Assembly: GCA_030065155.1 (NCBI GenBank)
Contig: JASJDI010000003.1
Coordinates: forward strand, 962-64,961
Reading direction: 5' to 3'
From: Xenococcaceae cyanobacterium MO_188.B29
GTDB taxonomy: Bacteria > Cyanobacteriota > Cyanobacteriia > Cyanobacteriales > Xenococcaceae
Length of the DNA stretch: 64,000 nucleotides
A model generated the notes under the pieces. It worked only from the letters and a program-made list of their open reading frames with translations, made no database searches and was not told where the DNA came from. Below are positions 19,479 to 62,974 of this stretch, piece by piece. Positions within the stretch are counted from its first letter, which is position 1, and the number at the start of each line of letters is the position of its first letter. The position numbers and the translations under genes are program-made.

Positions 19479-19480
19479 TC

Positions 19481-47921: not shown

Positions 47922-48151
47922 TTGGCGATGTAGATGCTAATTCAATTTTGCTTTGATAGATATCTGCATAAGTCCACTTTAACTAAACCTATATAAATCA
48001 AAGAGCTAGCTGGAAATATATATGTAAGATTACATTTTGTTTCTTCTGTCAAGCTTAAGTTTGTCTTTCAAAATCACTTTTTTCTACTTATCTCGAACGG
48101 TTTTTTGAGCATGAGATGTATCTATTTAGTTTTAAGTTTTAAGTGACATTA

Positions 48152-49678
48152 ATGAAACCAAAAACAAGCAGAAGAAGCAGGGGTGTAATTCTCACCCTCG
48201 AAGGCTGGGATAAACTTCAAGCAGCCAAAAGTGAAGCCGAGTTTGAGGATAATACTGGGGGTGAACGATTTTCTTTGGAAGAACTTAGCGATCGCATGAG
48301 TTTATCACTGCACACTGTCTCCAGAATATTGGGGCGATCGGAACCAGTAGATAAAGGTTCGTTGCAAAAAGCCTTCGCTGCCTTTGGATTGGAATTGTCT
48401 AAAAGCTATTATACTCAACCTACTCCCCCATGTGACGATTTAGAAACCCGACAGGCTTCTCCAATGTATGACTGGGGAGAAGCACCCGATACTTCTATAT
48501 TTTACAATCGCTATGAGGAAATATCGCAATTACGACATTGGGTCTTAGAAGAAAGGTGTCGTTTAATAACATTGCTGGGAATTGGTGGTATTGGCAAAAG
48601 TACTCTAGCAGTAAAATTGGGGTTGCAAATTCAAGATGAATTTGAGGTAGTGGTGTGGCGAAGTCTGCAAAATGCACTACCAGTCGAAGATAAGCTTACA
48701 GATATACTGCAATTTTTGCTGTGGGCATTGCGAAAAGAAATGGTAATACCCCAGAACTTTGAGGGAAAACTATCGAAGCTGATAGAGTGTTTGGTAAATC
48801 ACCGTTGTCTGCTGATTTTAGATAATTTCGAGACAATTTTATCTAGGAAGAGTCAAGTAGGACAATGTCGTCTTGGCTACGAAGGATATGGTCAATTAAT
48901 CAAACTGATTGGAGAAGTACCTCATAACAGTTGTGTTTTCCTGACTTCCAGAGAAAAACCAAGAGCAATTTTACCTTTAGAAGGAGAAAGAACAAAAGTT
49001 AAATGTTTGCAGCTAGGAGGGTTAAATTCTCACGACGGACGGGAGTTATTCGAGCAAAAAGGACATTTTACAGGTACAGAACAAGAATGGAAAGTACTCA
49101 TAAAGCACTATGGTGGTAATCCCCTGGCGTTGAAGATAGTAGCAGCAGGGGCAAAGGAGCTTTTCAATGGTAAAATTTCCTCGGTTTTAGACTATTTGGA
49201 ACAGGGGGCATTTATTTTTGAGGAAATAGGCGACTTATTAGAATACCAGTTCCAACGTTTATCGGTAGTGGAAAAAGAGGTAATATATTGGCTGGCAATT
49301 AATCGAGAACCAGTATCCCTAGATGAATTAGCTGCCGACCTAGTTACATTTTCGTCCAAACATCAGTTACTCCACGCCATTAAATCATTATTGCAAAGGT
49401 CGTTGGTTAATAAGAACGGTGAGCATTTCTTTCTCCAACCAGTAGTACTAGAATACACTACACAGCGATTGGTCGATCGAATTTGTCAAGAATTAGTAGA
49501 AAAAAAGCGGATATCTTTACGCTTGTTTAAAAACCATGCCTTAATTAAGACAACATCTAAAGACCACATTCGGGAGACACAAAAGCAACATATTATACAG
49601 CCATTACTCGAAAAACTGTTAGTAGAGTTGGGCAGCCAGAAGACACATATAATCTTTCTTAGAAATTACTTAAGTTGA
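48152..49678 (+). CDS. HTH + NB-ARC (STAND) NTPase, apparently 3'-truncated (no repeat sensor domain)
   Basis: Track ORF starts at GTG 48143; ATG 48152 (MKPKTSRR) is preferred. N-terminal HTH-like region (LSLEELSDRMSLSLHTVSRIL), Walker A LLGIGGIGKSTLA, Walker B LLILDNFE. The ORF stops about where WD40/TPR arrays usually begin in this family. Confidence 0.7.
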   Translation: MKPKTSRRSRGVILTLEGWDKLQAAKSEAEFEDNTGGERFSLEELSDRMSLSLHTVSRILGRSEPVDKGSLQKAFAAFGLELSKSYYTQPTPPCDDLETRQASPMYDWGEAPDTSIFYNRYEEISQLRHWVLEERCRLITLLGIGGIGKSTLAVKLGLQIQDEFEVVVWRSLQNALPVEDKLTDILQFLLWALRKEMVIPQNFEGKLSKLIECLVNHRCLLILDNFETILSRKSQVGQCRLGYEGYGQLIKLIGEVPHNSCVFLTSREKPRAILPLEGERTKVKCLQLGGLNSHDGRELFEQKGHFTGTEQEWKVLIKHYGGNPLALKIVAAGAKELFNGKISSVLDYLEQGAFIFEEIGDLLEYQFQRLSVVEKEVIYWLAINREPVSLDELAADLVTFSSKHQLLHAIKSLLQRSLVNKNGEHFFLQPVVLEYTTQRLVDRICQELVEKKRISLRLFKNHALIKTTSKDHIRETQKQHIIQPLLEKLLVELGSQKTHIIFLRNYLS

Positions 49679-49782: not shown

Positions 49783-52700
49783 ATGTTAAAGTTAACCAGA
49801 TATAGATTAAATATTGTTTTTGCATTAGGGTTAATCGCGCTCATTCCCTTTCCTGGAATGGCTCAGATTACGCCTGATGATACGTTGGGGAATGAAAGAT
49901 CGCAGGTCAACCGCAATGTCCAGGTCAGGGGCGGGAATGCCGATCGAATTGAGGGTGGAGCGACACGAGGCGCGAATCTGTTCCACAGTTTTCGAGAGTT
50001 TAACGTGAATGAGGGGCAGCGGGTTTATTTTGGCAATCCCTCTGGAATTGCTAATATTCTCGGTCGGGTGACGGGCAGGGATGTATCTGACATTATGGGT
50101 ACGCTGGGTGTGGATGGGGATGCGAATCTGTTTTTGCTCAATCCCAATGGCATTATTTTTGGACCAGATGCCCGTTTAGATATTAGTGGATCGTTTGTTT
50201 CCAGTACGGCAAATAGTTTTACGTTTTCCGATGGGACTGAGTTTAGTGCGACCAATCCAGGAAACTCGTCTCTGTTAAGTGTGAATGTGCCGTTGGGGGT
50301 GCAGTATGGACCGAATGCTCCAGGAGCGATCGCCAATGCTGGAACTCTATCTGTAGGACAGAACTTTACGTTGTCTGGGGGTAGCGTCACCAGTACGGGT
50401 CAATTGGCTGTACCGTCAGGGCAGCTTCTAATCGAAGGCGTTGCGGGAGATGTGCGGGTTAGGAATGCCAGCGCACAGACTGCGACTTTCTCGGCTAGTA
50501 ATAACCTGATTTTACAGGATAGTCAGCTTCAGACGGCAGGAGATTTGAACCTGTTGGCAGGTAATACGGTGCAGGTGCGGGATAGCGTGGCAAATCCCTT
50601 CGTTGCTTACTCTGGGGGGAATTTAACGGTTCAAGGCAATCAGGGTATTGATATTTTTGCATTGAATCATCCTTCTAGTGGGCTGGTTTCTGGTGGGGAT
50701 ATGGTGTTGCGATCGGCTAACACGGTAGGAGGAGATGCTCACTATTGGACGGGCGGTAACTTTCGGATCGAGCAATTGAATGGTGAGTTGGGTAGTCTGT
50801 TCAGTCCTTACGATCCTGTAATCCGTTCTATTGGAGATGTCAGTTTTGAGAGTTACGAAGGAGCTTCCTTGCATATTTTTGCGGGAGGAAGTGTGACTAT
50901 CGGTGGTAATGTAAGGATTACAGGTGTGGATGCAATGAATGGAATTTCTGATTCATTCAGTTTGGTAGACCCAAGCGATCCCACTGTTACAGTACCAGTA
51001 GATATTGATGGCGCATCTTTTCCAACACTCGATATCCGAGCAGGGATTACTGACAGCTCATTACTCACACCATCCCTGACACCAGAGACTAACTTTCCAG
51101 GGACAGGTACTCTCTCCCCTAATAATACACCTTCTTTAAATGAAGACCCTATTGGCTCAACTATTAGGATAGGTAGTATTACGAATCGTTCTCCTGGTGG
51201 TAGAGGACAAGTTCTTCTTACAAATCAGTATAGAAGTGATGGCTCAGTTCCAGGTTTAATTGAAATTACAAGTGGAATCATAGATCCACAAGCTACTAAT
51301 TTAGGTTCTCAATCTATTAGTGCCTATGGTAGTGATGTCATGATCGTATCTAGCGGTAATGTCAGAATTGCTAATGGTGCGATTACTGGTTCTGGTGGTA
51401 GTGACGGTGGTAGTATTCAAATCTATAGTGGTGATAGCATTACAACCGACAGCTTGCAATCGCTAGCTAATAATGGAAATGGTGGTAGTGTTACTCTTAG
51501 TTCGCTTGGCACTATTATGGCGGGCAATATAGTTTCTGTCACTACCGCCAACGGAGAAGCTGGCGGAGAAATCACCATCACAGCTAATGGCGGAGATATT
51601 AGGACAGGAGCTATTCGATCATTTGTCGGAAATTATGATAATGACACAGATGTATCAACTGGAGGTACTGGCAACGCAGGCGATATCAGATTAGATGCTC
51701 CCAATGGTCTCATTGATGTCAATGGTCGAATTGCCTCTTTTACAGGCAGTGGTAATGCCGGTAATATAAGCCTTAATGCTAGAGGTAATGTTGAAATCTT
51801 TTCTGCTCGATCGTTTGTAGGAAGCTATGATCCATCTAAAAATACAGATGAAAATCCCAGCGGTGGGGTTGAAACTGGAATTGGAAGTGCAGGAAACATT
51901 ACTATCAGCTCTTCAATCGGAGATATTACGTTAGATCCTAACGGTCCAAGAGATTTATTAGCCTTTAGCCGTGACTCTACTGAATTTAGTACGATTAGAC
52001 TTGATGCAGAACAAGGCTCTGTAACTCTAGATAGAGCAACATTTAATACCACAAATGAGGGTTCTGGTAATGCAGGTGATATTTATATTGGTGCTGAAGA
52101 TGAAATCAGGATTGTTAATAATAGCACAATCTCAACTGATGGAAACTTCGGACGAGTTTTTCTCGGACCAAACAGCGATGAACCAGACATTACATCCCCT
52201 CAGAGGATCACCATCACTGATAGTAGGATTACTGCGACTGAAAACATTGATACTGAGGATATTGTGGCAGGTGATATTTATATTGGTGCTGATGATGAAA
52301 TTCAACTTAACAACAGCGAAATCTCAACTGATGGAAACTTAGGGCGAATTTTTCTCGGACCAAACAGCGAAGAGCCAAACATCACCTCACCTCAGAGGAT
52401 CGCCATCACCAATAGTAGGATTACAACAAGATTAGAAGAAGAAGCAACTGGCACCAGTGGCGATATTAAAATCACTGCCGACTCATTTCGCCTCACAGAT
52501 GGTGCTCAATTATCTAGCAGTACTTTTGGAAATGGAGATGCTGGTGCGATCGAGATTAATGCTGAATATGAGGTGCTTATCACTGGAGCTGACACAGACA
52601 TCTTCAATCAAATTACGAGAAATGCAACTGGAGACGGCGGTAGTATTACAATCACTACAAACTCATTTGAACTCTCTGAAGGTGCCGAATTATCTGCCAG

Positions 52701-53973
52701 TACTTTTGGAACTGGAAATGCTGGTGCGATCGACATTAATGCTGAAGATGAGGTGGTTCTCTCTGGAGCGACTATTTTTAACAATGTGGAAGAAGGGGGA
52801 GTCGGTAACGCAGGAGATATTGATATTGATACCCCATCACTTACATTAAGCGATGGTGCTGAAATCCAATCTCTTGTGCGTGCGGGGAACATTAATACTC
52901 AAGAAGAAAGAGAAAGTCGTGTAAATGGAGGCACGATTACTGTTAAAGCTCGTGACATCGTCCTAAAGGATAAGAGCCAGTTTTTCACCCGTATAGAAGA
53001 GAATTCGGTAGGTACTGGTGGTAATATTAAAATTAATGCAAACTCACTTCGTATCAAAAATAACCTCACAGATACGGATAATAAAATATTTACAGTTTTG
53101 GATGCTCAAGCATTTAATGACTCAAGTAGTGCTGGAAGCATAACGATCGATGCTGACCAATTTAATCTCCAAAACAGCGGAGTGACAGTCAGCAATACAC
53201 AAGGAAAGGCAGGTAGTTTAAGCATTACAGCCAATTCTATTGAACTAGATAAAAGTGAACTATCGGCGATCGCTGGCGAGGGTGATTTAGGCAATATCGA
53301 AATAGAACTGTTAGGAACGCTGCTCCAGCTTTATGACAATAGCCTAATCTCAGCAGGCGCTGAGGGGGTAGGCAGTGGGGGTGACCTCACCATCAATGCA
53401 GAAAATGGTTTTGTGCTAGCCAATCCATATGGTAACAGCGATATCCTTGCTAATGCCTTTGAAGGAAACGGTGGTAACATCACCATCACAACCAACGCTA
53501 TTTTCGGTCTAGAAGAACGCAATCCTTTAACTGATTTAAGCGATATTAATGCTGACTCAGAATTTAATACACCAGGCAATATTGTCATCGATACGCTGAA
53601 CATCGATCCCACCCGAGGACTCAGTGAACTGCCGATCGAAATTGTTAATGCTGCCGATCTCGTTGCTGAAGGGTGCATTGGCAGCAACCGCAGTGGCGTT
53701 GAGTCTCAAGGAGAATTTACCCGCACCGGGCGAGGTGGGCTATCTCCCGATCCGACTGGCACCCTCACCGATGAATCGTTAATCGAGCGCTCTACCCCAG
53801 CGGATACAGACAATCGCTCTGGTACCGTTCCCTCAGAAACCTCCCCTCAGCCTTTGGTCGAAGCCCAGGGGTTAGCCCGCGATGCCAGCGGCAAAGTTTC
53901 CCTTGTCACCTATTCTACCAATCCCACAGTGCCCTCGCCCCTATTCAGCCCCAATACTTGCGATGCTCCCTAA
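49783..53973 (+). CDS. Two-partner-secretion exoprotein (TpsA) with filamentous-haemagglutinin N-terminal TPS domain and beta-helical repeats
   Basis: 1396 aa. Signal peptide. TPS domain motifs GANLFHSFREFNV, NILGRVTG, ANLFLLNPNGIIFG. Then hundreds of residues of G/N/S/T-rich beta-helix repeats with internal tandem duplications. Confidence 0.9.
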   Translation: MLKLTRYRLNIVFALGLIALIPFPGMAQITPDDTLGNERSQVNRNVQVRGGNADRIEGGATRGANLFHSFREFNVNEGQRVYFGNPSGIANILGRVTGRDVSDIMGTLGVDGDANLFLLNPNGIIFGPDARLDISGSFVSSTANSFTFSDGTEFSATNPGNSSLLSVNVPLGVQYGPNAPGAIANAGTLSVGQNFTLSGGSVTSTGQLAVPSGQLLIEGVAGDVRVRNASAQTATFSASNNLILQDSQLQTAGDLNLLAGNTVQVRDSVANPFVAYSGGNLTVQGNQGIDIFALNHPSSGLVSGGDMVLRSANTVGGDAHYWTGGNFRIEQLNGELGSLFSPYDPVIRSIGDVSFESYEGASLHIFAGGSVTIGGNVRITGVDAMNGISDSFSLVDPSDPTVTVPVDIDGASFPTLDIRAGITDSSLLTPSLTPETNFPGTGTLSPNNTPSLNEDPIGSTIRIGSITNRSPGGRGQVLLTNQYRSDGSVPGLIEITSGIIDPQATNLGSQSISAYGSDVMIVSSGNVRIANGAITGSGGSDGGSIQIYSGDSITTDSLQSLANNGNGGSVTLSSLGTIMAGNIVSVTTANGEAGGEITITANGGDIRTGAIRSFVGNYDNDTDVSTGGTGNAGDIRLDAPNGLIDVNGRIASFTGSGNAGNISLNARGNVEIFSARSFVGSYDPSKNTDENPSGGVETGIGSAGNITISSSIGDITLDPNGPRDLLAFSRDSTEFSTIRLDAEQGSVTLDRATFNTTNEGSGNAGDIYIGAEDEIRIVNNSTISTDGNFGRVFLGPNSDEPDITSPQRITITDSRITATENIDTEDIVAGDIYIGADDEIQLNNSEISTDGNLGRIFLGPNSEEPNITSPQRIAITNSRITTRLEEEATGTSGDIKITADSFRLTDGAQLSSSTFGNGDAGAIEINAEYEVLITGADTDIFNQITRNATGDGGSITITTNSFELSEGAELSASTFGTGNAGAIDINAEDEVVLSGATIFNNVEEGGVGNAGDIDIDTPSLTLSDGAEIQSLVRAGNINTQEERESRVNGGTITVKARDIVLKDKSQFFTRIEENSVGTGGNIKINANSLRIKNNLTDTDNKIFTVLDAQAFNDSSSAGSITIDADQFNLQNSGVTVSNTQGKAGSLSITANSIELDKSELSAIAGEGDLGNIEIELLGTLLQLYDNSLISAGAEGVGSGGDLTINAENGFVLANPYGNSDILANAFEGNGGNITITTNAIFGLEERNPLTDLSDINADSEFNTPGNIVIDTLNIDPTRGLSELPIEIVNAADLVAEGCIGSNRSGVESQGEFTRTGRGGLSPDPTGTLTDESLIERSTPADTDNRSGTVPSETSPQPLVEAQGLARDASGKVSLVTYSTNPTVPSPLFSPNTCDAP

Positions 53974-56086
53974 ATATTTTGCCTCTACTATCCATCTCTT
54001 AACCATCACTCTTGCCCTAGTCACCCTGAACTCGGTCTGCAAATCCCTGGAAGTGCAAGCCACCGAGTTAATGGACGGGTCTGACTATTCCCCACGACAG
54101 CCAACCCAGTCATCGGCAGGTAAATTTGCCGTTACCACCTCTCCTATCTTAGTTGCTCAAGCTTTTCCCAATCTTTCTCAAGATCTTCCCCGCGATATCC
54201 CGCCTCAGAGCATTCCCCGCGATCCCTCTCCAGACACAGAACCCCTGCCCACAGAACCTCCAACTCCTTTACCGCCTCCCGAACAACTACTTCAACCCTC
54301 TGAATCATCTCCTATTGCCCCTGACGTTACACCTAGCACAGCACCCCAAACCGTTTTTGTTGAAGAGTTTAGCGTCGTAGACAGCACTGTATTTGATGCC
54401 GATGAACTCGCTACCCTGGCTTGGCAAGCCACCACTTTAGACTCAGACACCGCGATCCCCGATTTAATTCGCTCTTATTTAGATTCAGATGCTGCGATCC
54501 CCGATTTTTGTAAAGATGATTCACGCTCTGACTCTTCAGAAACACCTGCCGAAGCATCTCAAGACACAGAAGATTCAGAAGACAGAGCAAGTACAATAGA
54601 CGCTCGAGCTTCCCCATCGCAGGAAACCACTGCTACCAATATAACCAATGTGTCTAGTACCCCAAAAAAAGGATGGGAACTCAGCTTCGAGCAACTCCTG
54701 CGGGCACGGTCTACTATTACTCAGCTTTATATCAAATGCGGTTACATTACCTCAGGCGCGATCCTGCCTCCGCAAACGCCAGAAGCTGAAAACAATGTAG
54801 TAGAGATTAAGATAGTTGAAGGTAGACTGGAAGACATTGAAGTTACAGGGTTACGACGACTCAATCCTGGCTATGTTCGCAGTCGCCTCGCCATTGCTGG
54901 ATCGGAACCACTTAACCGAAAACAGTTAGTGCGAGGATTGCAACTGCTGCAACTGAACCCGCTGATTCGCCGTATCTCCGCCGACTTGCAAACAGGAACT
55001 CGTCCTGCTACCAGTATTTTACGTGTAGAGGCTACCGAAGCTGATTCCTTTGATGTTACATTTGATTTAAATAACAATCGATCGCCCAGTGTTAGCAGTT
55101 TCCAACGGGGCATCACCTTCAACCAGGCAAACCTGTTAGGTTTTGGGGATGGCTTAAGTGTCACCTACGATAACACTGACGGTAGTAACAAGATTAGCAG
55201 CAGATATATCATCCCAGTCAATCCTCGCAATGGCACCCTGGCTTTTAGATATGACTACATCAACAGCGATGTGGTTGAATCCCCCTTTGACGTTTTAGAT
55301 ATTGAAGCAGAGTCTTCTTACTACGAAGTTACCTTTAGGCAACCAGTCTTCCAGATTCCCACTGAAGAATTTGTGCTGGGGCTGACCTTCTCGCGCCAAG
55401 AAAGCCAGACTGAGGTTGGATTCGACGATATTGGACCTTTTCCCCTCTCTCTAGGTGCAGATGAAGAAGGACGAACTAAAGTTTCCGCGATTCGCTTCAC
55501 CCAAGAATGGCTCAAGCGTACTCCCAGACAAGTACTGGCAGCTCGCTCTGAATTCAGCCTGGGACTCGATTTATTTGATGCTACTATCAATGATGACCCT
55601 TTACCAGATGGTCGCTTTTTTGTGTGGAGAGGACAAGGGCAATGGGTGCGTCAATTGAATGATTCAGGACTGCTGTTGCTGGTGCGTGGCAATGTACAAC
55701 TCACAGGGGATTCTCTGGTTCCTTTTGAGCAGTTTGCACTAGGAGGACAAGACACGATTCGTGGTTATCGTCAGGATGAATTAACAAGCGACAATGGAGT
55801 CTATGGTTCGGTTGAAGTCCGATTTCCAGTTTTACGTTTTAGCCAGAGGCAGGGCATATTCTACCTAATTCCTTTTTTCGATGTCGGTACGGGTTGGAAT
55901 AATGAATTCTCAGATAATCTGGAAGATACAACATTGGTAAGCACGGGGATCGGTTTGGGCTTGGACATCGGCGATGACCTGAGGGCACGAGTAGATTGGG
56001 GAATTCCACTAGTTTCTATAGATAGAGAGGAGCAAACATGGCAAGAAAACGGAGTATATTTTTCCATTCAATATTCACCTTTTTAA
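53963..56086 (+). CDS. ShlB/FhaC/HecB-family TpsB outer-membrane transporter with long Pro-rich N-terminal extension
   Basis: ATG 53963 (MLPKYFAST..., signal-like) is preferred over the track start 53882 and overlaps the tpsA stop by 11 nt. POTRA-like region (VVEIKIVEGRLEDIEVTG). C-terminal beta-barrel ending ...YFSIQYSPF. Confidence 0.85.
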   Translation: MLPKYFASTIHLLTITLALVTLNSVCKSLEVQATELMDGSDYSPRQPTQSSAGKFAVTTSPILVAQAFPNLSQDLPRDIPPQSIPRDPSPDTEPLPTEPPTPLPPPEQLLQPSESSPIAPDVTPSTAPQTVFVEEFSVVDSTVFDADELATLAWQATTLDSDTAIPDLIRSYLDSDAAIPDFCKDDSRSDSSETPAEASQDTEDSEDRASTIDARASPSQETTATNITNVSSTPKKGWELSFEQLLRARSTITQLYIKCGYITSGAILPPQTPEAENNVVEIKIVEGRLEDIEVTGLRRLNPGYVRSRLAIAGSEPLNRKQLVRGLQLLQLNPLIRRISADLQTGTRPATSILRVEATEADSFDVTFDLNNNRSPSVSSFQRGITFNQANLLGFGDGLSVTYDNTDGSNKISSRYIIPVNPRNGTLAFRYDYINSDVVESPFDVLDIEAESSYYEVTFRQPVFQIPTEEFVLGLTFSRQESQTEVGFDDIGPFPLSLGADEEGRTKVSAIRFTQEWLKRTPRQVLAARSEFSLGLDLFDATINDDPLPDGRFFVWRGQGQWVRQLNDSGLLLLVRGNVQLTGDSLVPFEQFALGGQDTIRGYRQDELTSDNGVYGSVEVRFPVLRFSQRQGIFYLIPFFDVGTGWNNEFSDNLEDTTLVSTGIGLGLDIGDDLRARVDWGIPLVSIDREEQTWQENGVYFSIQYSPF

Positions 56087-58824
56087 GAACTATTTCACAA
56101 CGAGCGATTGGGTCATGGACAAGAGTATTTTCCGTTGCCCATCGCTCCACTCTGGCGATTTATGTTTTGCTGGCAGTTTTGACCGCCTTGATTTGTACAA
56201 CGGCTTTACCTGGGTTTGCCAGAATCACAATCGCCCAAACTACTGTTCGAGCTGCGCCAGCGCAAACTGAAGCCCAGAAGTTGGAGAAACAAGGCAGAGA
56301 GTATTATAAGACTGGGCATTTTAGTGAAGCTGCTGCAGTTTTTAAACAAGCTGCCATCCTGTATCAACGGTTAGGCAGTATAGAGCAATCCGCAGAGAGT
56401 AGGATTAACCAGGCGAGGGCACTCCAGGCTTTGGGGCTATACAACCAGGCGATCGCGGTTTTGCAGAAAGTGTTGCAAGACCCAGAGCAACCCACCCCCC
56501 TATTACAAGATTTGAATGTTGAAGTAAGGTGTTCGGAGGACAATCTTGTTCTCAATCCATTGCGGGGACGGCTAGAAGCTTTACCCGTCTCATCCAACAA
56601 TGCTGCAATTACTGCTGCTGCCCTACGAGGTTTAGGAGATGCCCTACAAGTGGCAGGAAATTTGGAGGAGTCTTGTACGATTTTGCGTTACAGTCTAGAA
56701 CTTGCCAAAACCCAGTCACTGACTGATGCTATTGCTCCGACCTACTTGAGCCTGGGTAACTTGGCTCGCACCCAGGCGATCGAAAATCTGCGATTAAATA
56801 ATTTGACCACCGAGCAGGCAATTGCCCAACTCCAGAGACAACTGAGTCCAATTCAGCAAGAATTACAGCGTCGTCAGACCGAAGCTGCTCAACAGTTTAT
56901 GAACCAAACGGGAACGGCTCTGGACTACTATCAGCAAGCTGCTAACGATTCCACAAGACTAATTCAAGCCCAAGCCCAACTCAATACCCTAAGCTTACTT
57001 CTAGACAGGCAAGAGTGGTCAGAAGCCACTAACGCTATTCCGCCACTCTATCCCCTGCTTAACAGTCTTCCTCTCAGTCGCTCGGCGATCAAAGCTAAAA
57101 TTAATCTTGCCCACAGCCTGATGCGAATGGCAGAGGGACAATTGGAACCTGCTGCTCGTTCTCCTTCATCCGATTACATGGGGCAAGCTGCCCAACTGCT
57201 AGCGATCGCTCGGCAACAGGCGAGCGATTTGGACATTGCCCAGACCGAATCCTATGCCTTGGGAAGCCTGGGAGAGCTATATGAACGCACACAACAGTGG
57301 TCGGAAGCAAAAGCCTTGACCCAGCAGGCTTTGGAGAAGGTCAACTCCGTTTCGGTCACAAACTTACCTCATACCGTCAGTGATGCCGACCTGACCTACC
57401 GTTGGTACCGTCAGTTAGGTCGAATTCTCATTGCCCAAGGTGATAGAGAGGGGGCGATCGAAGCCTACGAAACGGCAGTAAAGGTGCTGCAAGAGCGTCT
57501 GCGGTTGGATATAGCCTCTAGCAATCTGAACTACCAATTATCCTTCAATCAGAAGGCTCAAGAACCCGTACATTTAGAATTGATGGATTTGCTGTTGCAA
57601 CCAGAGGAACCAAGCCAGCAGAATTTACAGCAGGTACGTGAGATCGTTTCCGCATTACTTGAAGCAGAATTGACAAGCTTTCTGAACGAACCTTGTGCTA
57701 TTGCAACGCCCGATCAACTTGACACAATCGTTCGAGAAAAGGCACAGCGAACCGCTATTTTCTATCCCCTTATTTTACCCGATCGTTTGGAAACGATCGT
57801 TAAGTTACCTGACGATCAGGAACTTATTCACTACCGTCATTTTATTCCCAAGGATCGGCTGTTGGAAAAGCTCAACAAACTTCAACTTGCCCTTGAGGAA
57901 GACTATACCTTTGAGGCAGTAGAAAATCTTTCTCAACAATTTTACGCCTGGATTGTTCAACCAGCAGAAGAGCTACTAAAAACCAACCAGGTAGACACGC
58001 TCGTTTTCACGCTCGGTCGCCAACTCCAGACGATTCCGATGGCAGCTCTGTATGATGGTGAAACCTATCTAATCGATAAATATGCGGTCTCTGAGTTTTT
58101 GGGGTTGAGTGTAGGCGGTTCGGTCGAGCGACTACAGCAGGAAGGGTTAAAAGTAATCGCAGCAGGGCTTTCAGATCTGCCTCCCTCGCTTCCAGAAGAG
58201 AGCGAAAACAACTTTCTGCCACTTACCTATGTCAGTAGAGAATTAGACGCGATCAACACCCTTCAAGAAAATGGAATTCCTGTTACTATTCTTAAAGGCG
58301 AGCAATTTGACCTCACGAACTTCAGGACTCTAATGAATGAAGACGAGTTTCCAGTGGTTCACTTAGCAACTCATGGACAGTTCAGTGTCGATCCTCAAAA
58401 GACCTTTTTGCTGACCAGCAATGTCTTGATTAGAGTGAATGACTTGGCTGCCCTGTTTCGGACAAGAGGACAAATTCGACTAGATTCGATCGAGCTACTG
58501 GTACTTAACGCCTGCGAAACAGCTGCTGGAGATAAGTTAGCCACGCTGGGACTAGCTGGTATTACCGTGCGGGCAGGGGCAAGTAGCGCGATCGCTTCTC
58601 TCTGGACGCTGGATGATAGATCCAGTGTTACCTTCACGCGAGAGCTGTACAAAAACCTGCAAATAGCTGATGTCAGCAAAGCAGAGGCACTGCGTCAAGC
58701 TCAACTGAAACTGATGCGCGACCCCCAATATCGACATCCTCGCTATTGGTCGCCCTACATTTTAGTAGGCAACTGGTTGCCTTTAATTTCTTCTCGATCG
58801 GTTGGCTCCGCAGACTCTAGATAG
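56038..58824 (+). CDS. Signal-anchored TPR-repeat CHAT-domain (caspase-like) protease
   Basis: 928 aa. N-terminal hydrophobic helix (LAIYVLLAVLTALICTTALPGFA), TPR-like repeats, and a C-terminal CHAT with His (VVHLATHGQF) and Cys (LVLNACETA) dyad motifs, ending HPRYWSPYILVGNW. Confidence 0.85.
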   Translation: MARKRSIFFHSIFTFLRTISQRAIGSWTRVFSVAHRSTLAIYVLLAVLTALICTTALPGFARITIAQTTVRAAPAQTEAQKLEKQGREYYKTGHFSEAAAVFKQAAILYQRLGSIEQSAESRINQARALQALGLYNQAIAVLQKVLQDPEQPTPLLQDLNVEVRCSEDNLVLNPLRGRLEALPVSSNNAAITAAALRGLGDALQVAGNLEESCTILRYSLELAKTQSLTDAIAPTYLSLGNLARTQAIENLRLNNLTTEQAIAQLQRQLSPIQQELQRRQTEAAQQFMNQTGTALDYYQQAANDSTRLIQAQAQLNTLSLLLDRQEWSEATNAIPPLYPLLNSLPLSRSAIKAKINLAHSLMRMAEGQLEPAARSPSSDYMGQAAQLLAIARQQASDLDIAQTESYALGSLGELYERTQQWSEAKALTQQALEKVNSVSVTNLPHTVSDADLTYRWYRQLGRILIAQGDREGAIEAYETAVKVLQERLRLDIASSNLNYQLSFNQKAQEPVHLELMDLLLQPEEPSQQNLQQVREIVSALLEAELTSFLNEPCAIATPDQLDTIVREKAQRTAIFYPLILPDRLETIVKLPDDQELIHYRHFIPKDRLLEKLNKLQLALEEDYTFEAVENLSQQFYAWIVQPAEELLKTNQVDTLVFTLGRQLQTIPMAALYDGETYLIDKYAVSEFLGLSVGGSVERLQQEGLKVIAAGLSDLPPSLPEESENNFLPLTYVSRELDAINTLQENGIPVTILKGEQFDLTNFRTLMNEDEFPVVHLATHGQFSVDPQKTFLLTSNVLIRVNDLAALFRTRGQIRLDSIELLVLNACETAAGDKLATLGLAGITVRAGASSAIASLWTLDDRSSVTFTRELYKNLQIADVSKAEALRQAQLKLMRDPQYRHPRYWSPYILVGNWLPLISSRSVGSADSR

Positions 58825-59741
58825 AGCTGATTATCTGGAATATGAAAATAAGCTAATAAATTTCTCCAGGTACTCCGATTGATAATTGAAAACTGGCGCT
58901 GAGTTTTGACTAGCGAATTTACGGTATCAAACCAAATTCCGTTCTCGGCATAAACCATATACTGCTCAAAAAGAGGCGCATTTTTCAGGGCGGTTTGTAA
59001 TTCTTCCGTAGGTTCTATCCGTTGCACCCATCCCCGTACCACAGGATTTTTAGAAAGTTTTTCAGCATCACAAATCACAGAGAAGTACCAGCTATAAAGC
59101 TTATCTGTCTCCAAGGTATAGGGCAACAGATACTCAACCAAACGCGGATTCTCTAACAGATCGACAGACATCAGCTCATTCCAAACTGGATGCTCGGTTT
59201 CGTCTAACAGAACAAATTGGGCAACGATGCGATTTGGTGGTGTTTCAGGAGTTGAGATGTAAGGCAGATAAAACCAGAAAGTTGGCTGTGCTTCCAGGGT
59301 TAAACCTCCGACAGCTCCAACATCAGCATCTAAATCGGTCTGTTGCAGCTGTTCCTCATCTTCTGTTGTCTGGAGAGCTACTAGGGCTGTAACAGATTGA
59401 TTGAGCTCAGTTTGCCGATCTCGATCGTCTGGATCGATCTGAGTCAATGCACAAATCGGTCCCCGTCCTGCGCCTCCTACTCTTCGACCTATAGGTGCTG
59501 TACCACGCTGGGGAGGGCTGTACAATCCAGTTCGTTCGAGTAGCTGTTTGAAGACAGAAACAATATCTTGAGCGTGAGCAACTGGAATTAACCTATGGGT
59601 AAGCGTATTATTTTGAGAAACGGGAAATAAAGGAAACAAAAGAAAGCTTGTAACTATAAAAGCGAGTGTCCAGGACAGCATTTTTGCCCTAATTAATCCT
59701 TTAAGCCAAGTCATCATAAGTGTAAAAACCTTAATCATCAT
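58755..59741 (-). CDS. DUF928-family exported protein
   Basis: 328 aa. N-terminal hydrophobic signal, then the family-typical PPQRGTAPIGRRVGGAGRGPIC motif. Confidence 0.7.
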   Translation of the reverse strand: MMIKVFTLMMTWLKGLIRAKMLSWTLAFIVTSFLLFPLFPVSQNNTLTHRLIPVAHAQDIVSVFKQLLERTGLYSPPQRGTAPIGRRVGGAGRGPICALTQIDPDDRDRQTELNQSVTALVALQTTEDEEQLQQTDLDADVGAVGGLTLEAQPTFWFYLPYISTPETPPNRIVAQFVLLDETEHPVWNELMSVDLLENPRLVEYLLPYTLETDKLYSWYFSVICDAEKLSKNPVVRGWVQRIEPTEELQTALKNAPLFEQYMVYAENGIWFDTVNSLVKTQRQFSIINRSTWRNLLAYFHIPDNQLYLESAEPTDREEIKGNQLPTKM

Positions 59742-59751
59742 TTGTTTATTG

Positions 59752-61875
59752 CTATTTCACATTAGGATTTAGCTTGAGGCGTTGATTAGCCCACCAAATA
59801 TAGCTACTGGTTGCCGACTGTGCTAAAAAATGAGGCATTAGGGGTACCCAACCATTAAAGTGAAAAAACACCATGCTAATAACCACAACGGTACCACCGC
59901 TAATAACAATCAAAATTCCTAACTCCGGCAACGATGTCAACCACCATCCGACTCCACCTCCTACAAGTGCAAAAATAAAAATTAACAAGAGATCTACTCT
60001 TCTAGGTAAAACCCAGATTAAGGTATCCTTCTTTTCCGCAACATCAATAATTTGCTCGATCATCTGAGCCTGTACGATAACTCCTGGTGTGACTTCGTCA
60101 TGACCTTGGTCGTAAGGGGTTCTCCAATTATCACTAATGCCATCTGAGCGATCGATACCAATCATCACAATGGGTTTATTGAAGTCTTTAGCTGGAAAAT
60201 CTGGCTTCAAGAATTCTTCTAAGGTTACGGCTTTATATTCTTGGTCTTTTTTTTGTTCTCGATATTTCAAAAGTATCTGACATCCATTGAACAGATCGCT
60301 GGCACTACCAGAATAACCTTGGTATCCCCCTGTATTAGGTTGTAGGTTTGTCAAAACTACACCATTACTAAATTGGATTTGGCAAGTTTCTTTGGAAACC
60401 TTGTCTTCAGGGTTAATCTTTTTTTTCCTTTGCAGATAGCGTTCTGCTAATAATAAACTAAAAGACTTGGTTGATGAACACCTTGGATGAGTTTTAGGAT
60501 CGTTATAAAAAGCTAAAAGCTGACGCCGAAGAATGCCGTCCTTGTCCTGTGAAAAGTCGCTAAATCCCACCCGAGCTGGTGTCACACCAGGTGGTGGCGA
60601 GATTCCTTCAGGGTCTTTCTCGTCTCCTGCTTTACAAACAGCAAATAGATTGGGTTGCTGAAAAAGAGTACTCAAAGTTTGCTTGGCGATTCGATCTTTT
60701 TCGGTAGCTGACGCCGATCGAGCAACTGGGGTTTGTCCAGCAGAAGCCGTGGGTTGAACATTTAAAGTTTGCTCACGATAAATATCTAAGCCGATTGCAA
60801 TTGGCTCAAGCTTCTGCACCTTTTGTAGCAAATTAACAAGCGTTACATTCGAGAGTGAATAAGTCATCACCTCCCCTCGTTTTTCCTGTGCCTCAGCATC
60901 CTGCTTCGTAATCTTGATAATTAAAAAGCGATCGCTTGGCTTTGGTGGATTGAATTGGTTCCGCATCAAAGAATCATAGAAACCGAGTTCAAAGGGTTGA
61001 AAGACTTGAAAAGCCCGAATCAGGATAACCAGAGCCGTCATACCTATGCTTGCAAAGAGAACTGTACGAGGTTTACAGCGAACCAGAGGAAGAAGACTAC
61101 TCCAGTCACGATTCTTTTGATGAAATTTTGCCTGTTTATCTTTCAGGTTACTTATTTTCGCCAGGATGGTGACAGCAGAGATTGCTTCTCCCCCCGATGT
61201 ATTGTTAGAATCACGTGTAAACTTGACGATGCCACAAACTTTACAAGTTTGTTTATTTAACAAGGGTGAACTTCTTAAAAGGGGCAAATCATCTTGATTC
61301 GATCTAAATTTAATGATGGTTAGGTCATCTTCAGTCCGATCTTGGCTCACTTCTTCAACAACGTAGCTCCCCTCTTTAGAATTCCCGTCTGAATAGCCAT
61401 AAGTATAAAGTTCGTCCTTTGGCTGAACTGCTTTATTATCCAAATAAACGCAGGGATGGTTAGAATTAGCAGGAAGGTCGAACTTTAATATTGCTAAATC
61501 GACCGAGTTAAACCTATCGTATACAGCGGCTTTAGCAAAGTTTTCTTGATTTTGACAACATACAACGATGTTATAGATGTTATCGTCTGCTCCTTTTACC
61601 TCATGAGCACAGGTCAGAATCAATCCAGGAGCAATAAAAAATCCTGTAACCCATCCAGACTTACCTGGAATGCTCAGCTTGACTGTACAGGATTTCAGCA
61701 ATTCGTTCAGCTTTGCCTTGTTTTCATCTGTCGAAATCTGCTGAACAATTGTGGGCTGGTTTACAGTAACAGATGTTCCCTGGATGACATTTAATTTGTT
61801 GTCATGTCCTTGTATCTCAATATCGCCAAAGCTTTGCCACTGATTCTGCTGCCGATCCTCATGATCTTGGTTCAT
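59752..61875 (-). CDS. CHASE2 sensor protein with N-terminal cytoplasmic trypsin-fold domain and no C-terminal output domain
   Basis: 707 aa. Residues ~60-250 are trypsin-like (LILTCAHEV His, SVDLAILKF Asp, degenerate Ser motif LLRSSPLLN). TM at ~271-289. CHASE2 hallmarks (FELGFYDSLMR, FLIIKITKQD, IAIGLDIYRE, DKDGILRRQLL). Three C-terminal TM helices, then the stop. Confidence 0.8.
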   Translation of the reverse strand: MNQDHEDRQQNQWQSFGDIEIQGHDNKLNVIQGTSVTVNQPTIVQQISTDENKAKLNELLKSCTVKLSIPGKSGWVTGFFIAPGLILTCAHEVKGADDNIYNIVVCCQNQENFAKAAVYDRFNSVDLAILKFDLPANSNHPCVYLDNKAVQPKDELYTYGYSDGNSKEGSYVVEEVSQDRTEDDLTIIKFRSNQDDLPLLRSSPLLNKQTCKVCGIVKFTRDSNNTSGGEAISAVTILAKISNLKDKQAKFHQKNRDWSSLLPLVRCKPRTVLFASIGMTALVILIRAFQVFQPFELGFYDSLMRNQFNPPKPSDRFLIIKITKQDAEAQEKRGEVMTYSLSNVTLVNLLQKVQKLEPIAIGLDIYREQTLNVQPTASAGQTPVARSASATEKDRIAKQTLSTLFQQPNLFAVCKAGDEKDPEGISPPPGVTPARVGFSDFSQDKDGILRRQLLAFYNDPKTHPRCSSTKSFSLLLAERYLQRKKKINPEDKVSKETCQIQFSNGVVLTNLQPNTGGYQGYSGSASDLFNGCQILLKYREQKKDQEYKAVTLEEFLKPDFPAKDFNKPIVMIGIDRSDGISDNWRTPYDQGHDEVTPGVIVQAQMIEQIIDVAEKKDTLIWVLPRRVDLLLIFIFALVGGGVGWWLTSLPELGILIVISGGTVVVISMVFFHFNGWVPLMPHFLAQSATSSYIWWANQRLKLNPNVK

Positions 61876-61882
61876 GATTAAT

Positions 61883-62974
61883 CTACCCTACCCAAGCTTT
61901 TACTATAAGAGCCTCTACCTTTGCTACTGGTTCTGCCAAAGTCAATAATTCCTGCAATCCCTGCTTTAGAGCATCAACTACCTCATTAATAAAACTCTTG
62001 TCTGGCTTCGGTTTCTGTAACTCCTCCTCAAGCATCTCGATCTTTGATTCCGTATCCTTCTTCGTAAAGGTACTTAGCCCATCCGTTGCTGCAACCTGCT
62101 TTTTTAGCTTTGCCAATGCGTCCAATGCGGCTTCCAAGTCCGTATTTCCGCCTGTGGTTTGAGTGTTAGTTTGAGTCACGTTGACATTCCCCGTCGATTG
62201 GATCGCGTTCAATGGATTGTTACTACCGCTGAATGTAATGTTGCCAAAGGTTTGCGACTGTTTAACTGGTGGTTTTGGTTGCGGTGCAGGTACAGTCACT
62301 GGCGGATCTGAATCCGGGGGGGGTGTCTTGATATTAAAAGGATCGTCGCTTCCTCTCCTATTATCAAGAACCGGGGTTAACGATTCTGGAATGCTATGGA
62401 GATCGAGACTATTCCGAGCTAATTGATAGGCAAAATTAAAAGAATCTCCCCGCGCCAATGCTTGATAAAATACTCTGGCAAACTCGATCGCTGCTCGATC
62501 GCCGATCGCTTTATTCATTCCCACCACGCAATCAATATGTTGATGAATTGCCTTGGCTTGCATCTCGGAATAACAGGCATTCAACACCACACATTTCACA
62601 TCGTTCTCCAATAGCTTAAATAAACCAGCCAGAGCATCGGTGCTCACCAGTGTTGCTCGTCCCTGGTCATCCTCAAGCACCAATCCCTCTGGTTCAGGAG
62701 CGTCTTCTGGAAATGGACTCAGCTTTCGAGTTGTGCTATCGTCCTGAGAGCCAGTACCATGACCAGAGAAATGAACAATATGCGGTTTGTGGTCTAGTAG
62801 AGCGCGGGACAAGTCCCTCACCCGAACCGCCCATTGGCTGATAAGTTCAAAGCGATCGCGGTATTTAGCTCGTTCCAGTTCTTCCTGAATCGAACGAACC
62901 TCCTCATCCAATCGTAGTTGAGAGGTATTCACTGGATTTACTGCAAGAACCAAAATTTTTATCTTAGAGTTCAT
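61883..62974 (-). CDS. Small cytoplasmic CHAT/caspase-like protease with Pro-rich linker and helical C-terminal extension
   Basis: 363 aa. His motif HIVHFSGHG, Cys motif VVLNACYS, linker PPPDSDPPVTVPAPQPKPP, then FGNITFSGSNNPLNAIQSTGNVNVTQ and an amphipathic helical tail. Stop lies 7 nt upstream of the CHASE2 gene. Confidence 0.8.
   Translation of the reverse strand: MNSKIKILVLAVNPVNTSQLRLDEEVRSIQEELERAKYRDRFELISQWAVRVRDLSRALLDHKPHIVHFSGHGTGSQDDSTTRKLSPFPEDAPEPEGLVLEDDQGRATLVSTDALAGLFKLLENDVKCVVLNACYSEMQAKAIHQHIDCVVGMNKAIGDRAAIEFARVFYQALARGDSFNFAYQLARNSLDLHSIPESLTPVLDNRRGSDDPFNIKTPPPDSDPPVTVPAPQPKPPVKQSQTFGNITFSGSNNPLNAIQSTGNVNVTQTNTQTTGGNTDLEAALDALAKLKKQVAATDGLSTFTKKDTESKIEMLEEELQKPKPDKSFINEVVDALKQGLQELLTLAEPVAKVEALIVKAWVG

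What the first reader, a model, noticed from the sequence alone, without database searches (positions are those of the whole stretch)
59752..61875. CHASE2 receptor wired backwards: output is an N-terminal cytoplasmic trypsin-fold domain
CHASE2 is established as an extracytoplasmic sensor normally followed by C-terminal cyclase, GGDEF or kinase outputs. Here the protein ends right after the three C-terminal TM helices. The only other domain is a ~200-aa trypsin-fold module at the N-terminus, before TM1, with no signal peptide, so it should be cytoplasmic. That would make proteolysis or protease-like binding the signalling output of a CHASE2 sensor.
Basis: partly seen in the sequence, partly recalled or inferred. 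Interest (0 to 1): 0.65.

Follow-up and report, generated by a model that had tools for sequence, protein, structure and literature searches.

The report
CHASE2 receptor with dead protease domain
The gene is a real cyanobacterial membrane receptor with its trypsin-like domain on the cytoplasmic side, but that domain has lost its catalytic serine, and the receptor most likely signals through a short motif it shares with a caspase-like protease encoded immediately upstream.

Summary
ORF 59752..61875 (-) encodes 707 aa: an N-terminal trypsin-fold domain with no signal peptide, one TM helix, a CHASE2 domain and three C-terminal TM helices. Nothing follows. No output domain is missing: 37 homologues end the same way, and a DUF928 gene starts 10 bp downstream in all 12 loci that extend past the gene's end.

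Cytoplasmic N-terminal modules on CHASE2 are already published, including a metacaspase-CHASE2 protein with this topology (2012). The trypsin domain here is a pseudo-protease (His91, Asp126, Arg201 in place of Ser). Only 1 of its 19 closest relatives keeps the triad; all 18 proteins of a sister clade keep it.

New here: residues 14-40 form a Q/N/G-rich motif that recurs in the cytoplasmic CHAT protease encoded 7 bp upstream. Three motif types co-vary between neighbouring genes in ten loci. Close relatives insert an nSTAND1 NTPase after the motif, giving an NLR-like layout.

The gene sits in a conserved, apparently undescribed six-gene cassette: TpsA, TpsB, exported TPR-CHAT, DUF928, the receptor and the small CHAT. 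The likely output is motif-mediated recruitment and activation of that CHAT protease. This is inferred, not shown. It is a new variant of known kinds.

The parts
59752..61875 (-). Receptor gene, 707 aa: motif, pseudo-trypsin domain, TM1, CHASE2, three TM helices
   Evidence: ORF; Pfam; AF2 model
61756..61836 (-). Receptor-side motif, aa 14-40: QSFGDIEIQGHDNKLNVIQGTSVTVNQ. It is 74% Q/N/G/V/I/T/S and lies in a region of pLDDT below 50.
61096..61725 (-). Trypsin-fold (PA clan) domain plus conserved C-terminal helix, aa 51-260. His91 is at 61603-61605, Asp126 at 61498-61500, and Arg201 at 61273-61275 in the catalytic Ser column.
   Evidence: codon AGA read
61003..61071 (-). TM helix 1, aa ~269-291, preceded by a K/R-rich segment
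59956..61035 (-). CHASE2 domain, Pfam aa 281-640, predicted periplasmic. Cys414, Cys466, Cys498 and Cys532 are invariant in the close clade.
59770..60003 (-). TM helices 2-4, aa ~625-702, followed by a basic tail (NQRLKLNPNVK)
61883..62974 (-). Small cytoplasmic CHAT (caspase-like) protease, 363 aa, with His72 and Cys134 present. Its stop codon lies 7 bp before the receptor start codon.
62171..62254 (-). Effector-side motif, aa 241-268 of the small CHAT: QTFGNITFSGSNNPLNAIQSTGNVNVTQ
61889..62143 (-). Conserved four-helix C-terminal module of the small CHAT, aa 278-362, pLDDT above 90. No Pfam family matches; it hits the PADLOC candidate PDC-M14B.
58755..59741 (-). DUF928 protein, 328 aa, with an N-terminal signal or anchor segment. 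It starts 10 bp after the receptor stop codon.
   Evidence: synteny
56038..58824 (+). TPR-CHAT protease, 928 aa, with an N-terminal hydrophobic segment, so probably exported or anchored. It is convergent with DUF928.
53882..56086 (+). TpsB transporter (POTRA_2, ShlB and Omp85 domains)
49783..53973 (+). TpsA exoprotein, 1396 aa, with a TPS secretion domain and a signal peptide

Best explanation
The gene encodes a four-TM inner-membrane receptor. Its CHASE2 domain faces the periplasm. Its N-terminal 260 residues face the cytoplasm.

The cytoplasmic part has two elements. The first is a 27-residue Q/N/G-rich, beta-prone motif that is disordered in the monomer model. The second is a trypsin-fold domain that has lost its nucleophile and is a pseudo-protease.

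The receptor's own domain therefore does not cut anything. The motif is a homotypic coupling element. The same motif sits in the cytoplasmic CHAT protease encoded 7 bp upstream, between its protease domain and a conserved four-helix module.

Proposed mechanism (inferred): a periplasmic event changes the receptor's conformation or oligomeric state. The event is probably linked to the co-conserved TpsA/TpsB secretion pair, the exported TPR-CHAT or DUF928. The N-terminal motifs are then exposed or clustered and pair with, or template, the motif of the CHAT protein. This concentrates and activates the caspase-like protease.

Close relatives insert an nSTAND1 NTPase between the motif and the pseudo-trypsin domain. 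The window's protein is thus an NTPase-less version of an NLR-like receptor.

Shown here: the architecture, the loss of catalytic residues, motif sharing and co-variation, and the conserved gene order.

Inferred: the topology, the physical motif-motif contact, CHAT activation and the nature of the signal.
For: Architecture and topology.

Pseudo-protease: the window protein has H91, D126 and R201. Of 19 close relatives, only P0015 keeps H-D-S. All 18 sister-clade proteins keep it. Catalytic columns were anchored on PDB 9s74.

Motif sharing: local alignment of each receptor N-terminus with its neighbour's C-terminal region scores 57-87, which is z = 5.2-11.5 against shuffles, in 9 loci.

Co-variation across three motif types:
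- Type A receptors score 43-92 with type A partners and 23-53 with partners from type B or C loci. The overlap is with the L001 and L090 partners, which carry an A-like copy as well as type B.
- Type B receptors score 56-92 with type B partners and 22-39 with others.
- The type C receptor scores 87 with its own partner and 35-44 with others.

A tenth pair (L085, type A) was seen by eye.

The two motif-coding DNA segments are only 49/85 identical, so this is not a recent duplication. In the 64-kb window a motif HMM hits only these two genes.

The same pairing occurs outside this receptor family. Proteins of 172-180 aa carrying the motif and helical module lie directly upstream of motif-nSTAND1 NTPases, and the motifs match in detail, for example NFAPVQN against TFAPTQN.

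The motif-plus-helical module forms a family of 88 representative clusters. Among 60 members scanned, 11 carry CHAT and 2 carry TRADD-N at the N-terminus.

Long relatives have the order motif, nSTAND1, pseudo-trypsin, CHASE2. Direct CHAT-CHASE2 fusions exist, which are the all-in-one form.

The small CHAT keeps its His/Cys dyad. Its closest solved fold is the SAVED-CHAT activated filament 8tl0 (E 1e-11), consistent with activation by assembly.

The cassette order is conserved in the window, L001, L002, L003, L005, L062, L088, L089, L090, L091 and L083.

The layout matches published bacterial amyloid signalling pairs: a motif of about 25 aa rich in Q/N/G/V/I, adjacent collinear genes, and CHAT noted among effectors (bioRxiv 10.1101/2020.01.06.895854).
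Against: No experiment or complex model shows that the two motifs touch.

The effector-side motif is not at the extreme C-terminus as in described BASS pairs. A 95-residue helical module follows it.

The window's receptor lacks the NTPase that normally drives oligomerisation in NLR-type systems.

The type A motif does not match the BASS3-10 example sequences (z mostly below 2).

One type B receptor locus (L089) has no adjacent partner.

The window protein, unlike most of its clade, keeps His91 and Asp126 and has Ser202 next to Arg201. Residual or altered catalysis is not strictly excluded.

The CHASE2 ligand is unknown. The link to the TPS genes rests on synteny alone.
Confidence: 0.55

Rival explanations
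1. One reading: the N-terminal trypsin-fold domain is itself the catalytic output, and CHASE2 ligand binding switches on cytoplasmic proteolysis.
For: The fold is an S1/PA protease fold. His91 and Asp126 are retained. The sister clade (18 of 18) keeps a complete triad, and one locus has a Trypco1 gene upstream as in known trypsin effector systems (PMC7159879). For those proteins this reading is probably correct.
Against: Arg replaces the nucleophile Ser and Leu replaces the oxyanion-hole Gly in the window protein. Eighteen of its 19 closest relatives have lost at least one triad residue, with varied substitutions (His to Q/P/S/R/E/T; Ser to Q/E/I/M/N/V/G/R). This is the pattern of relaxed selection on catalysis.
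Confidence: 0.1
2. The pseudo-trypsin domain is the output, acting as a binding or scaffold module or as a cytoplasmic ligand sensor. The N-terminal Q/N-rich stretch is a linker. Its similarity to the neighbour reflects shared ancestry, not contact.
For: Degenerate S1 domains serve as non-catalytic modules elsewhere. Fold matches include the RsgI9 S1C domain and MamO (their non-catalytic roles are from my own knowledge). The domain is well conserved despite losing catalysis, with invariant G78, F79, F80, C142, K212, V213 and G215.
Against: Three distinct motif types track between partners. This includes partners that lack CHAT and receptors that lack CHASE2. DNA identity between the two motif segments is low. 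A linker would not be expected to co-vary in this way.
Confidence: 0.15
3. The protein is mainly an accessory of the two-partner secretion cassette, for example a membrane anchor or checkpoint for DUF928, TPR-CHAT or TpsA maturation, rather than a signal transducer.
For: There is strict synteny with DUF928, TPR-CHAT, TpsB and TpsA in at least 10 loci. All four neighbours carry export signals. CHAT-CHASE2 and trypsin-CHASE2 relatives also sit beside TPS and CHAT genes.
Against: This does not explain the cytoplasmic motif, the cytoplasmic CHAT partner or the NTPase in relatives. All of these are typical of signalling or conflict systems. The rival is compatible with the best explanation if the TPS system supplies the signal.
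Confidence: 0.15

Closest known systems
Metacaspase-CHASE2 and CHAT/caspase-CHASE2 receptors of cyanobacteria (Trichodesmium protein in PMC2853523 and PMC3501461; EACC2-caspase-CHASE2 in PMC8195603)
   Same: An N-terminal cytoplasmic protease-fold domain, one TM helix, CHASE2, three TM helices and no C-terminal output. The host group is also cyanobacteria.
   Different: The fold here is trypsin-like, not caspase-like, and it is catalytically dead. The protease activity appears to be supplied in trans by a separate CHAT protein coupled through a shared motif.
Bacterial amyloid signalling sequence (BASS) pairs, effector plus NLR (Dyrka et al., bioRxiv 10.1101/2020.01.06.895854)
   Same: A motif of about 27 aa rich in Q/N/G/V/I. 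It lies at the receptor N-terminus and in the C-terminal part of an effector encoded by the adjacent collinear gene. Partners match. CHAT occurs among the effectors. The hosts are cyanobacteria.
   Different: The receptor is a transmembrane CHASE2 protein without NB-ARC or NACHT; relatives use nSTAND1. The effector-side motif is followed by a helical module rather than being terminal. The type A motif is not assignable to BASS3-10. Amyloid formation is untested.
Trypsin-STAND/NACHT/TPR effector modules with Trypco1/2 (Kaur et al. 2020, PMC7159879); protease modules of Avs1b, LmuA and RT-protease defence proteins
   Same: The same trypsin module and its C-terminal helix, at 43-51% identity over aa ~55-262, is the N-terminal module of NACHT, TPR, GUN4, TIR and kinase proteins. 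It also gives PADLOC hits.
   Different: In those proteins the triad is intact and the partner domains are soluble. Here the module is degenerate and fused to a membrane sensor.
SAVED-CHAT of type III CRISPR systems (PDB 8tl0)
   Same: It is the best structural match of the small CHAT protease (E 1e-11, 25% identity). The matched entry is titled an activated filament, which is a precedent for activation by assembly.
   Different: The regulatory part there is a SAVED domain. Here it would be a short motif plus a helical module.
Effector-associated domain (EAD) coupling in multicellular-bacterial conflict systems (PMC7159879)
   Same: The same adaptor is present on an effector and on a core protein in adjacent genes, and neighbouring copies are the most alike.
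   Different: No EAD family of Pfam was detected. The element here is a short beta-prone motif with no Pfam family.

Membership tests
CHASE2 (PF05226) receptors | Match to the family profile above the curated threshold | tested here: met
   157.3 bits against a cut-off of 26.3, aa 281-640
CHASE2 (PF05226) receptors | [quoted passage not shown] | tested here: met
   Hydropathy and AF2 helices at 269-288, 625-645, 649-672 and 680-702
CHASE2 (PF05226) receptors | Extracytoplasmic location of the core and ligand binding | not testable with these tools
   Only indirect support: there is no signal peptide, K/R residues cluster before TM1 and in the C-terminal tail, and the core has four invariant Cys
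Active S1/PA-clan serine peptidases (Trypsin_2) | Double beta-barrel trypsin fold | tested here: met
   Pfam Trypsin_2 E 1e-9; Foldseek to MarP, HtrA and DegS, E down to 3e-10
Active S1/PA-clan serine peptidases (Trypsin_2) | His-Asp-Ser catalytic triad with a GxSG oxyanion-hole motif | tested here: not met
   H91 and D126 are present, but the Ser column holds R201 and the Gly column holds L199. The domain is therefore filed as a pseudo-protease.
Protease-CHASE2 receptors (metacaspase/CHAT-CHASE2 type) | N-terminal protease-fold domain, then TM, CHASE2 and 3 TM, with no C-terminal output | tested here: met
   compared with PMC3501461
Protease-CHASE2 receptors (metacaspase/CHAT-CHASE2 type) | Catalytically competent fused protease | tested here: not met
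BASS-type amyloid signalling pairs | Short motif (about 20-40 aa) shared by a receptor N-terminus and the effector encoded by the adjacent collinear gene | tested here: met
   (z = 5.2-11.5; type-specific pairing). The genes are 7 bp apart.
BASS-type amyloid signalling pairs | Composition enriched in Q/N/G/V/I and poor in K/P/L | tested here: met
   74% and 82% Q/N/G/V/I/T/S; at most one K, P or L each
BASS-type amyloid signalling pairs | Receptor is an NLR (NB-ARC/NACHT NTPase with repeats) | tested here: not met
   The window protein has no NTPase. Relatives of 47-58% identity carry nSTAND1.
BASS-type amyloid signalling pairs | Motif belongs to one of the families BASS1-10 | tested here: inconclusive
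   Only example sequences of BASS3-10 from the paper's Table S2 were compared. Type A gives z mostly below 2. Type B against BASS6 gives z 2.4-3.6. Type C against BASS4 gives z up to 4.1. The published HMMs were not available.
BASS-type amyloid signalling pairs | Forms cross-beta fibrils and templates its partner | not testable with these tools
   The motif region has pLDDT below 50 in both AF2 models, which is uninformative
STAND / NLR-like NTPases | P-loop STAND NTPase domain | tested here: not met
   Absent from the window protein. It is present (GASGSGKSS, PF20703) in P0004-6, 8, 9, 11 and 17-19 between the motif and the pseudo-trypsin domain.

The most novel reading that the evidence does not exclude
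A prion-like or amyloid-type signalling motif, so far tied to cytosolic NLR receptors, is used here by a transmembrane CHASE2 receptor that has no NTPase. The receptor would template and activate a caspase-like CHAT protease. This would couple an envelope event, linked to a two-partner-secreted exoprotein, DUF928 and a periplasmic CHAT protease, directly to a cytoplasmic death or differentiation protease in a colonial cyanobacterium. The dead trypsin domain would be the remnant of an effector swap from a fused protease to a recruited one.
Probability: 0.3. Interest if true: 0.8.

Novelty: new variant of a known kind. Interest (0 to 1): 0.55.

Why it matters
CHASE2 is a widespread sensor domain with no known ligand, and its outputs are thought of as cyclases and kinases. 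This locus suggests three testable ideas.

First, a whole branch of cyanobacterial CHASE2 receptors may signal through proteases, either fused or recruited.

Second, short partner-matched motifs of the kind used in NLR amyloid signalling may also serve membrane receptors.

Third, CHASE2 is genetically tied to a two-partner secretion cassette and to DUF928. This gives a first concrete lead to what CHASE2 senses.

The locus also offers a natural series: active trypsin-CHASE2, then dead trypsin with a recruited CHAT, with or without an NTPase. The series can be used to study how effectors are swapped in bacterial death and defence pathways.

Tried and rejected
- Frameshift or lost output domain: rejected. 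The gene order and protein end are conserved.
- I first read the 1170-1200 aa relatives as carrying a C-terminal NTPase. The alignment showed the nSTAND1 domain is N-terminal, between the motif and the pseudo-trypsin domain.
- Assigning the motif to a published BASS family: inconclusive.
- Pfam search of the motif and of the helical module, even at E <= 1: only chance-level matches below threshold for the module, none for the motif.
- Word-indexed homologue search with the C-terminal module gave only 2 hits. The exhaustive HMMER search was needed.
- The genome-contig scan used a trypsin-domain pattern. It mostly returned trypsin-X proteins; only 6 loci were full-length trypsin-CHASE2.
- The metagenome scan gave only 6 loci.
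- Foldseek of the whole receptor returned only trypsin-domain matches in the rows shown, so the fold relatives of the CHASE2 core were not determined.
- The small helical module could not be searched separately from the CHAT domain.
- Literature searches for DUF928, CHASE2 plus hemagglutinin, and CHASE2 plus two-partner secretion found no description of the cassette.
- Recent duplication or gene conversion as the source of motif similarity: rejected, because DNA identity is 58%.
Full report
**1. Observation**

The window holds a 707-codon ORF at 59752..61875 on the minus strand.

- Pfam detects Trypsin_2 at aa 77-181 (E 1e-9) and CHASE2 at aa 281-640 (E 6.9e-46).
- Hydropathy shows four hydrophobic segments: aa ~272-293, 627-647, 651-673 and ~677-697. 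There are none in the first 260 residues.
- An AlphaFold2 model built on 28 homologues has mean pLDDT 78 and pTM 0.65. It shows a disordered N-terminus (aa 1-49), a beta-rich domain (aa 51-260), a TM helix (269-288), an alpha/beta CHASE2 core (293-613) and three closing helices.
- Foldseek matches the N-terminal domain to MarP/Rv3671c, MucD, HtrA1 and DegS.

The ORF stops 5-10 residues after the last helix, and the next gene starts 10 bp later.

**2. No missing output domain**

All 19 close relatives and all 18 sister-clade proteins end just after the last TM helix. The downstream gene is DUF928 in all 12 loci that extend past the gene's end. A frameshift that hid a C-terminal domain is excluded.

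**3. 'Wired backwards' is not new**

- Cyanobacterial Ser/Thr kinases with CHASE2 were catalogued in 2007 (PMC2176072).
- A Trichodesmium metacaspase-CHASE2 was listed in 2010 (PMC2853523).
- That protein was discussed in 2012 as a protein with an N-terminal metacaspase, CHASE2 and 1+3 TM helices. [quoted passage not shown]
- Caspase-CHASE2 fusions appear again in PMC8195603.

In my homologue search, CHAT+CHASE2 is the commonest architecture among more distant hits. Peptidase_C14+CHASE2 and Pkinase+CHASE2 also occur, and about 25 clusters carry Trypsin_2+CHASE2. Trypsin-CHASE2 is thus a rare, cyanobacterial member of a known class. I found no paper that describes it.

**4. The trypsin domain is dead in this protein**

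Aligning the N-terminal regions separates two clades.

- The sister clade is 620-680 aa long and has no N-terminal extension. It keeps TCAH...DLALL...GLSGSP in 18 of 18 proteins.
- I aligned one sister-clade member (P0024) to the solved S1B protease Jep (9s74). This confirmed that these are the catalytic His, Asp and Ser.
- The window's clade has 19 proteins and has lost them. Only P0015 keeps all three.
- The window protein has His91, Asp126 and Arg201 in the Ser column, and Leu199 in place of the oxyanion-hole Gly (codon AGA at 61273-61275).
- The replacements differ among relatives. That is the signature of relaxed constraint on catalysis within an otherwise well-conserved domain.

It does not hold for this gene.

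**5. A shared, co-varying motif**

The window's clade has an extra ~45 N-terminal residues. Residues 14-40 read QSFGDIEIQGHDNKLNVIQGTSVTVNQ.

The gene 7 bp upstream encodes a 363-aa CHAT protease with no hydrophobic segment and an intact His72/Cys134 dyad. After a proline-rich linker it contains QTFGNITFSGSNNPLNAIQSTGNVNVTQ, followed by a four-helix module.

I compared receptor N-termini with neighbour C-terminal regions in nine loci.

- Cognate scores are 57-87, which is z = 5.2-11.5 against shuffles.
- The score matrix falls into blocks that define three motif types.
- Type A occurs in the window, L002, L003, L005 and L091, and also in L085.
- Type B occurs in L001, L088 and L090. The receptor reads '..IAIGTSVAGSAVVAGDGNTITVT' and the partner reads '..ISIGGSVTGSAITSGDGNTVSVTFQ'.
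- Type C occurs in L062: 'TIGDITITGNIQGSSLLTFNQ' against 'TFGNISIGGNVNDSNILTFNQ'.
- Each receptor type scores highest with partners carrying its own type. Type B and C receptors score 22-44 with the others. Type A receptors score 23-53 with partners from B or C loci; the upper values come from the two partners that also carry an A-like copy.

Further checks:

- In L088 the partner has no CHAT domain at all. It is only motif B plus a helical module.
- The two motif-coding DNA segments in the window are 58% identical, so the similarity is not a recent duplication.
- A motif HMM finds nothing else in the window's six frames.

**6. The wider family**

An exhaustive HMMER search with the CHAT protein's C-terminal 139 residues found 88 representative clusters.

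- Most are 170-180-aa proteins with a short N-terminal helix, the motif and the four-helix module.
- Of 60 scanned, 11 carry CHAT and 2 carry TRADD-N at the N-terminus.
- Two such small proteins lie directly upstream of motif-nSTAND1 NTPases, and the motifs match in detail.
- The module hits the PADLOC candidate defence protein PDC-M14B (E 3e-8). The trypsin module resembles the protease modules of LmuA, RT-protease and Avs1b.
- The 1170-1200-aa relatives of the window's receptor are 47-58% identical to it. They read motif, nSTAND1 NTPase, pseudo-trypsin, TM, CHASE2, 3 TM.

The window's protein is therefore the NTPase-less form of an NLR-like receptor whose sensor part is a membrane CHASE2 domain.

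This layout matches bacterial amyloid signalling pairs (bioRxiv 10.1101/2020.01.06.895854). Those pairs have motifs of about 25 aa rich in Q/N/G/V/I, lie in adjacent collinear genes, and include CHAT among their effectors. It also parallels the EAD-coupling principle of PMC7159879.

The motifs could not be assigned to BASS3-10 from the example sequences available. Type B is BASS6-like and type C is BASS4-like at modest z. Type A matches neither.

**7. Conserved cassette**

Around the receptor, the same genes recur in the window and in at least ten other loci from filamentous or colonial cyanobacteria. The order is:

small CHAT -> receptor -> DUF928 <- TPR-CHAT <- TpsB <- TpsA

- TpsA, TpsB, TPR-CHAT and DUF928 each have a single N-terminal hydrophobic segment, so they are envelope proteins. 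The small CHAT has none.
- Sister-clade loci and a CHAT-CHASE2 locus also lie beside TPS and CHAT genes.
- I found no paper describing this cassette. DUF928 is mentioned in only one paper of the searched library.

**8. Mechanism proposed**

Shown:
- the domain order;
- the loss of the nucleophile;
- the partner-specific motif;
- the conserved neighbours.

Inferred:
- the N-in topology;
- that a periplasmic cue connected with the TPS/DUF928/TPR-CHAT proteins alters the receptor;
- that the exposed or clustered N-terminal motifs pair with or template the CHAT protein's motif;
- that the resulting assembly activates the caspase-like protease.

The closest solved relative of this CHAT domain is the SAVED-CHAT activated filament 8tl0. 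That is a precedent for the last step.

The pseudo-trypsin domain may transmit the conformational change or bind a peptide. The rivals are an active trypsin output, a scaffold-only role, and a secretion accessory. They are weighed in the report sections.

**9. Verdict**

Three points raise it to a new variant of known kinds, of moderate interest:
- the dead protease;
- the co-varying motif that links a membrane CHASE2 receptor to a separate CHAT protease;
- the undescribed TPS/DUF928 cassette.

The host is a cyanobacterium. The window's RibBA protein falls in the same 90% cluster as a protein named from a Xenococcaceae MAG.

Noticed in passing
window 49783..62974: A six-gene cassette (TpsA, TpsB, exported TPR-CHAT, DUF928, CHASE2 receptor, small CHAT) is conserved in order and orientation in at least ten other cyanobacterial loci. 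It appears to be undescribed; DUF928 is mentioned in only one paper of the searched library.
   Followed up: partly
window 17877..21684 and 9037..12213: Zorya type I defence genes are present: ZorA (17877..19478, E 5e-158) and ZorC with an EH signature (20197..21684, E 6e-196). A ZorD/DpdE-like SNF2 helicase lies on the other strand at 9037..12213 (E 2.5e-135). A second 533-aa ORF at 22197..23798 has no match.
   Followed up: partly
window 48143..49678 (+): A stand-alone STAND NTPase (NB-ARC/NACHT, E 1e-9, with weak nSTAND1 similarity) lies directly upstream of tpsA. This is notable because relatives of the receptor carry a fused nSTAND1 domain. Whether it works with the cassette is unknown.
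   Followed up: no
window 46214..47647 (-): A 477-aa ORF has a weak Cas12f1-like/TnpB TNB-domain match (E 0.002), suggesting a mobile-element remnant next to the cassette.
   Followed up: no
window ~50000..60000: G+C rises from about 0.33-0.40 over most of the window to 0.44-0.48 across the TPS/CHAT/CHASE2 cassette. This is compatible with horizontal acquisition of the cassette.
   Followed up: no
L001 6823..7989 and L090 1242..2411: In loci whose receptor carries motif type B, the CHAT partner holds two motifs in tandem: a degenerate type A copy followed by type B. It also has a different helical module ending in a hydrophobic 'WYKLLPLVGLAI'. This resembles the pseudo-repeats reported for some amyloid signalling effectors.
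   Followed up: partly
L093 8607..9014: A Trypco1 (PF19493) gene overlaps the start of an active-site-intact trypsin-CHASE2 gene of the sister clade. This links that clade to the trypsin/Trypco pairs of conflict systems.
   Followed up: no
window 58755..58824: The 3' ends of the convergent DUF928 and TPR-CHAT ORFs overlap by 70 bp. Similar overlaps (46-82 bp) are seen in the related loci.
   Followed up: no
window 119..2359 (+): A cellulose-synthase-like GT2 protein with a C-terminal PilZ domain (BcsA-like) is present. Elsewhere in the window there is a GAF-MCP protein (34802..37597) and a Ser/Thr kinase-TPR protein (32185..34746).
   Followed up: no
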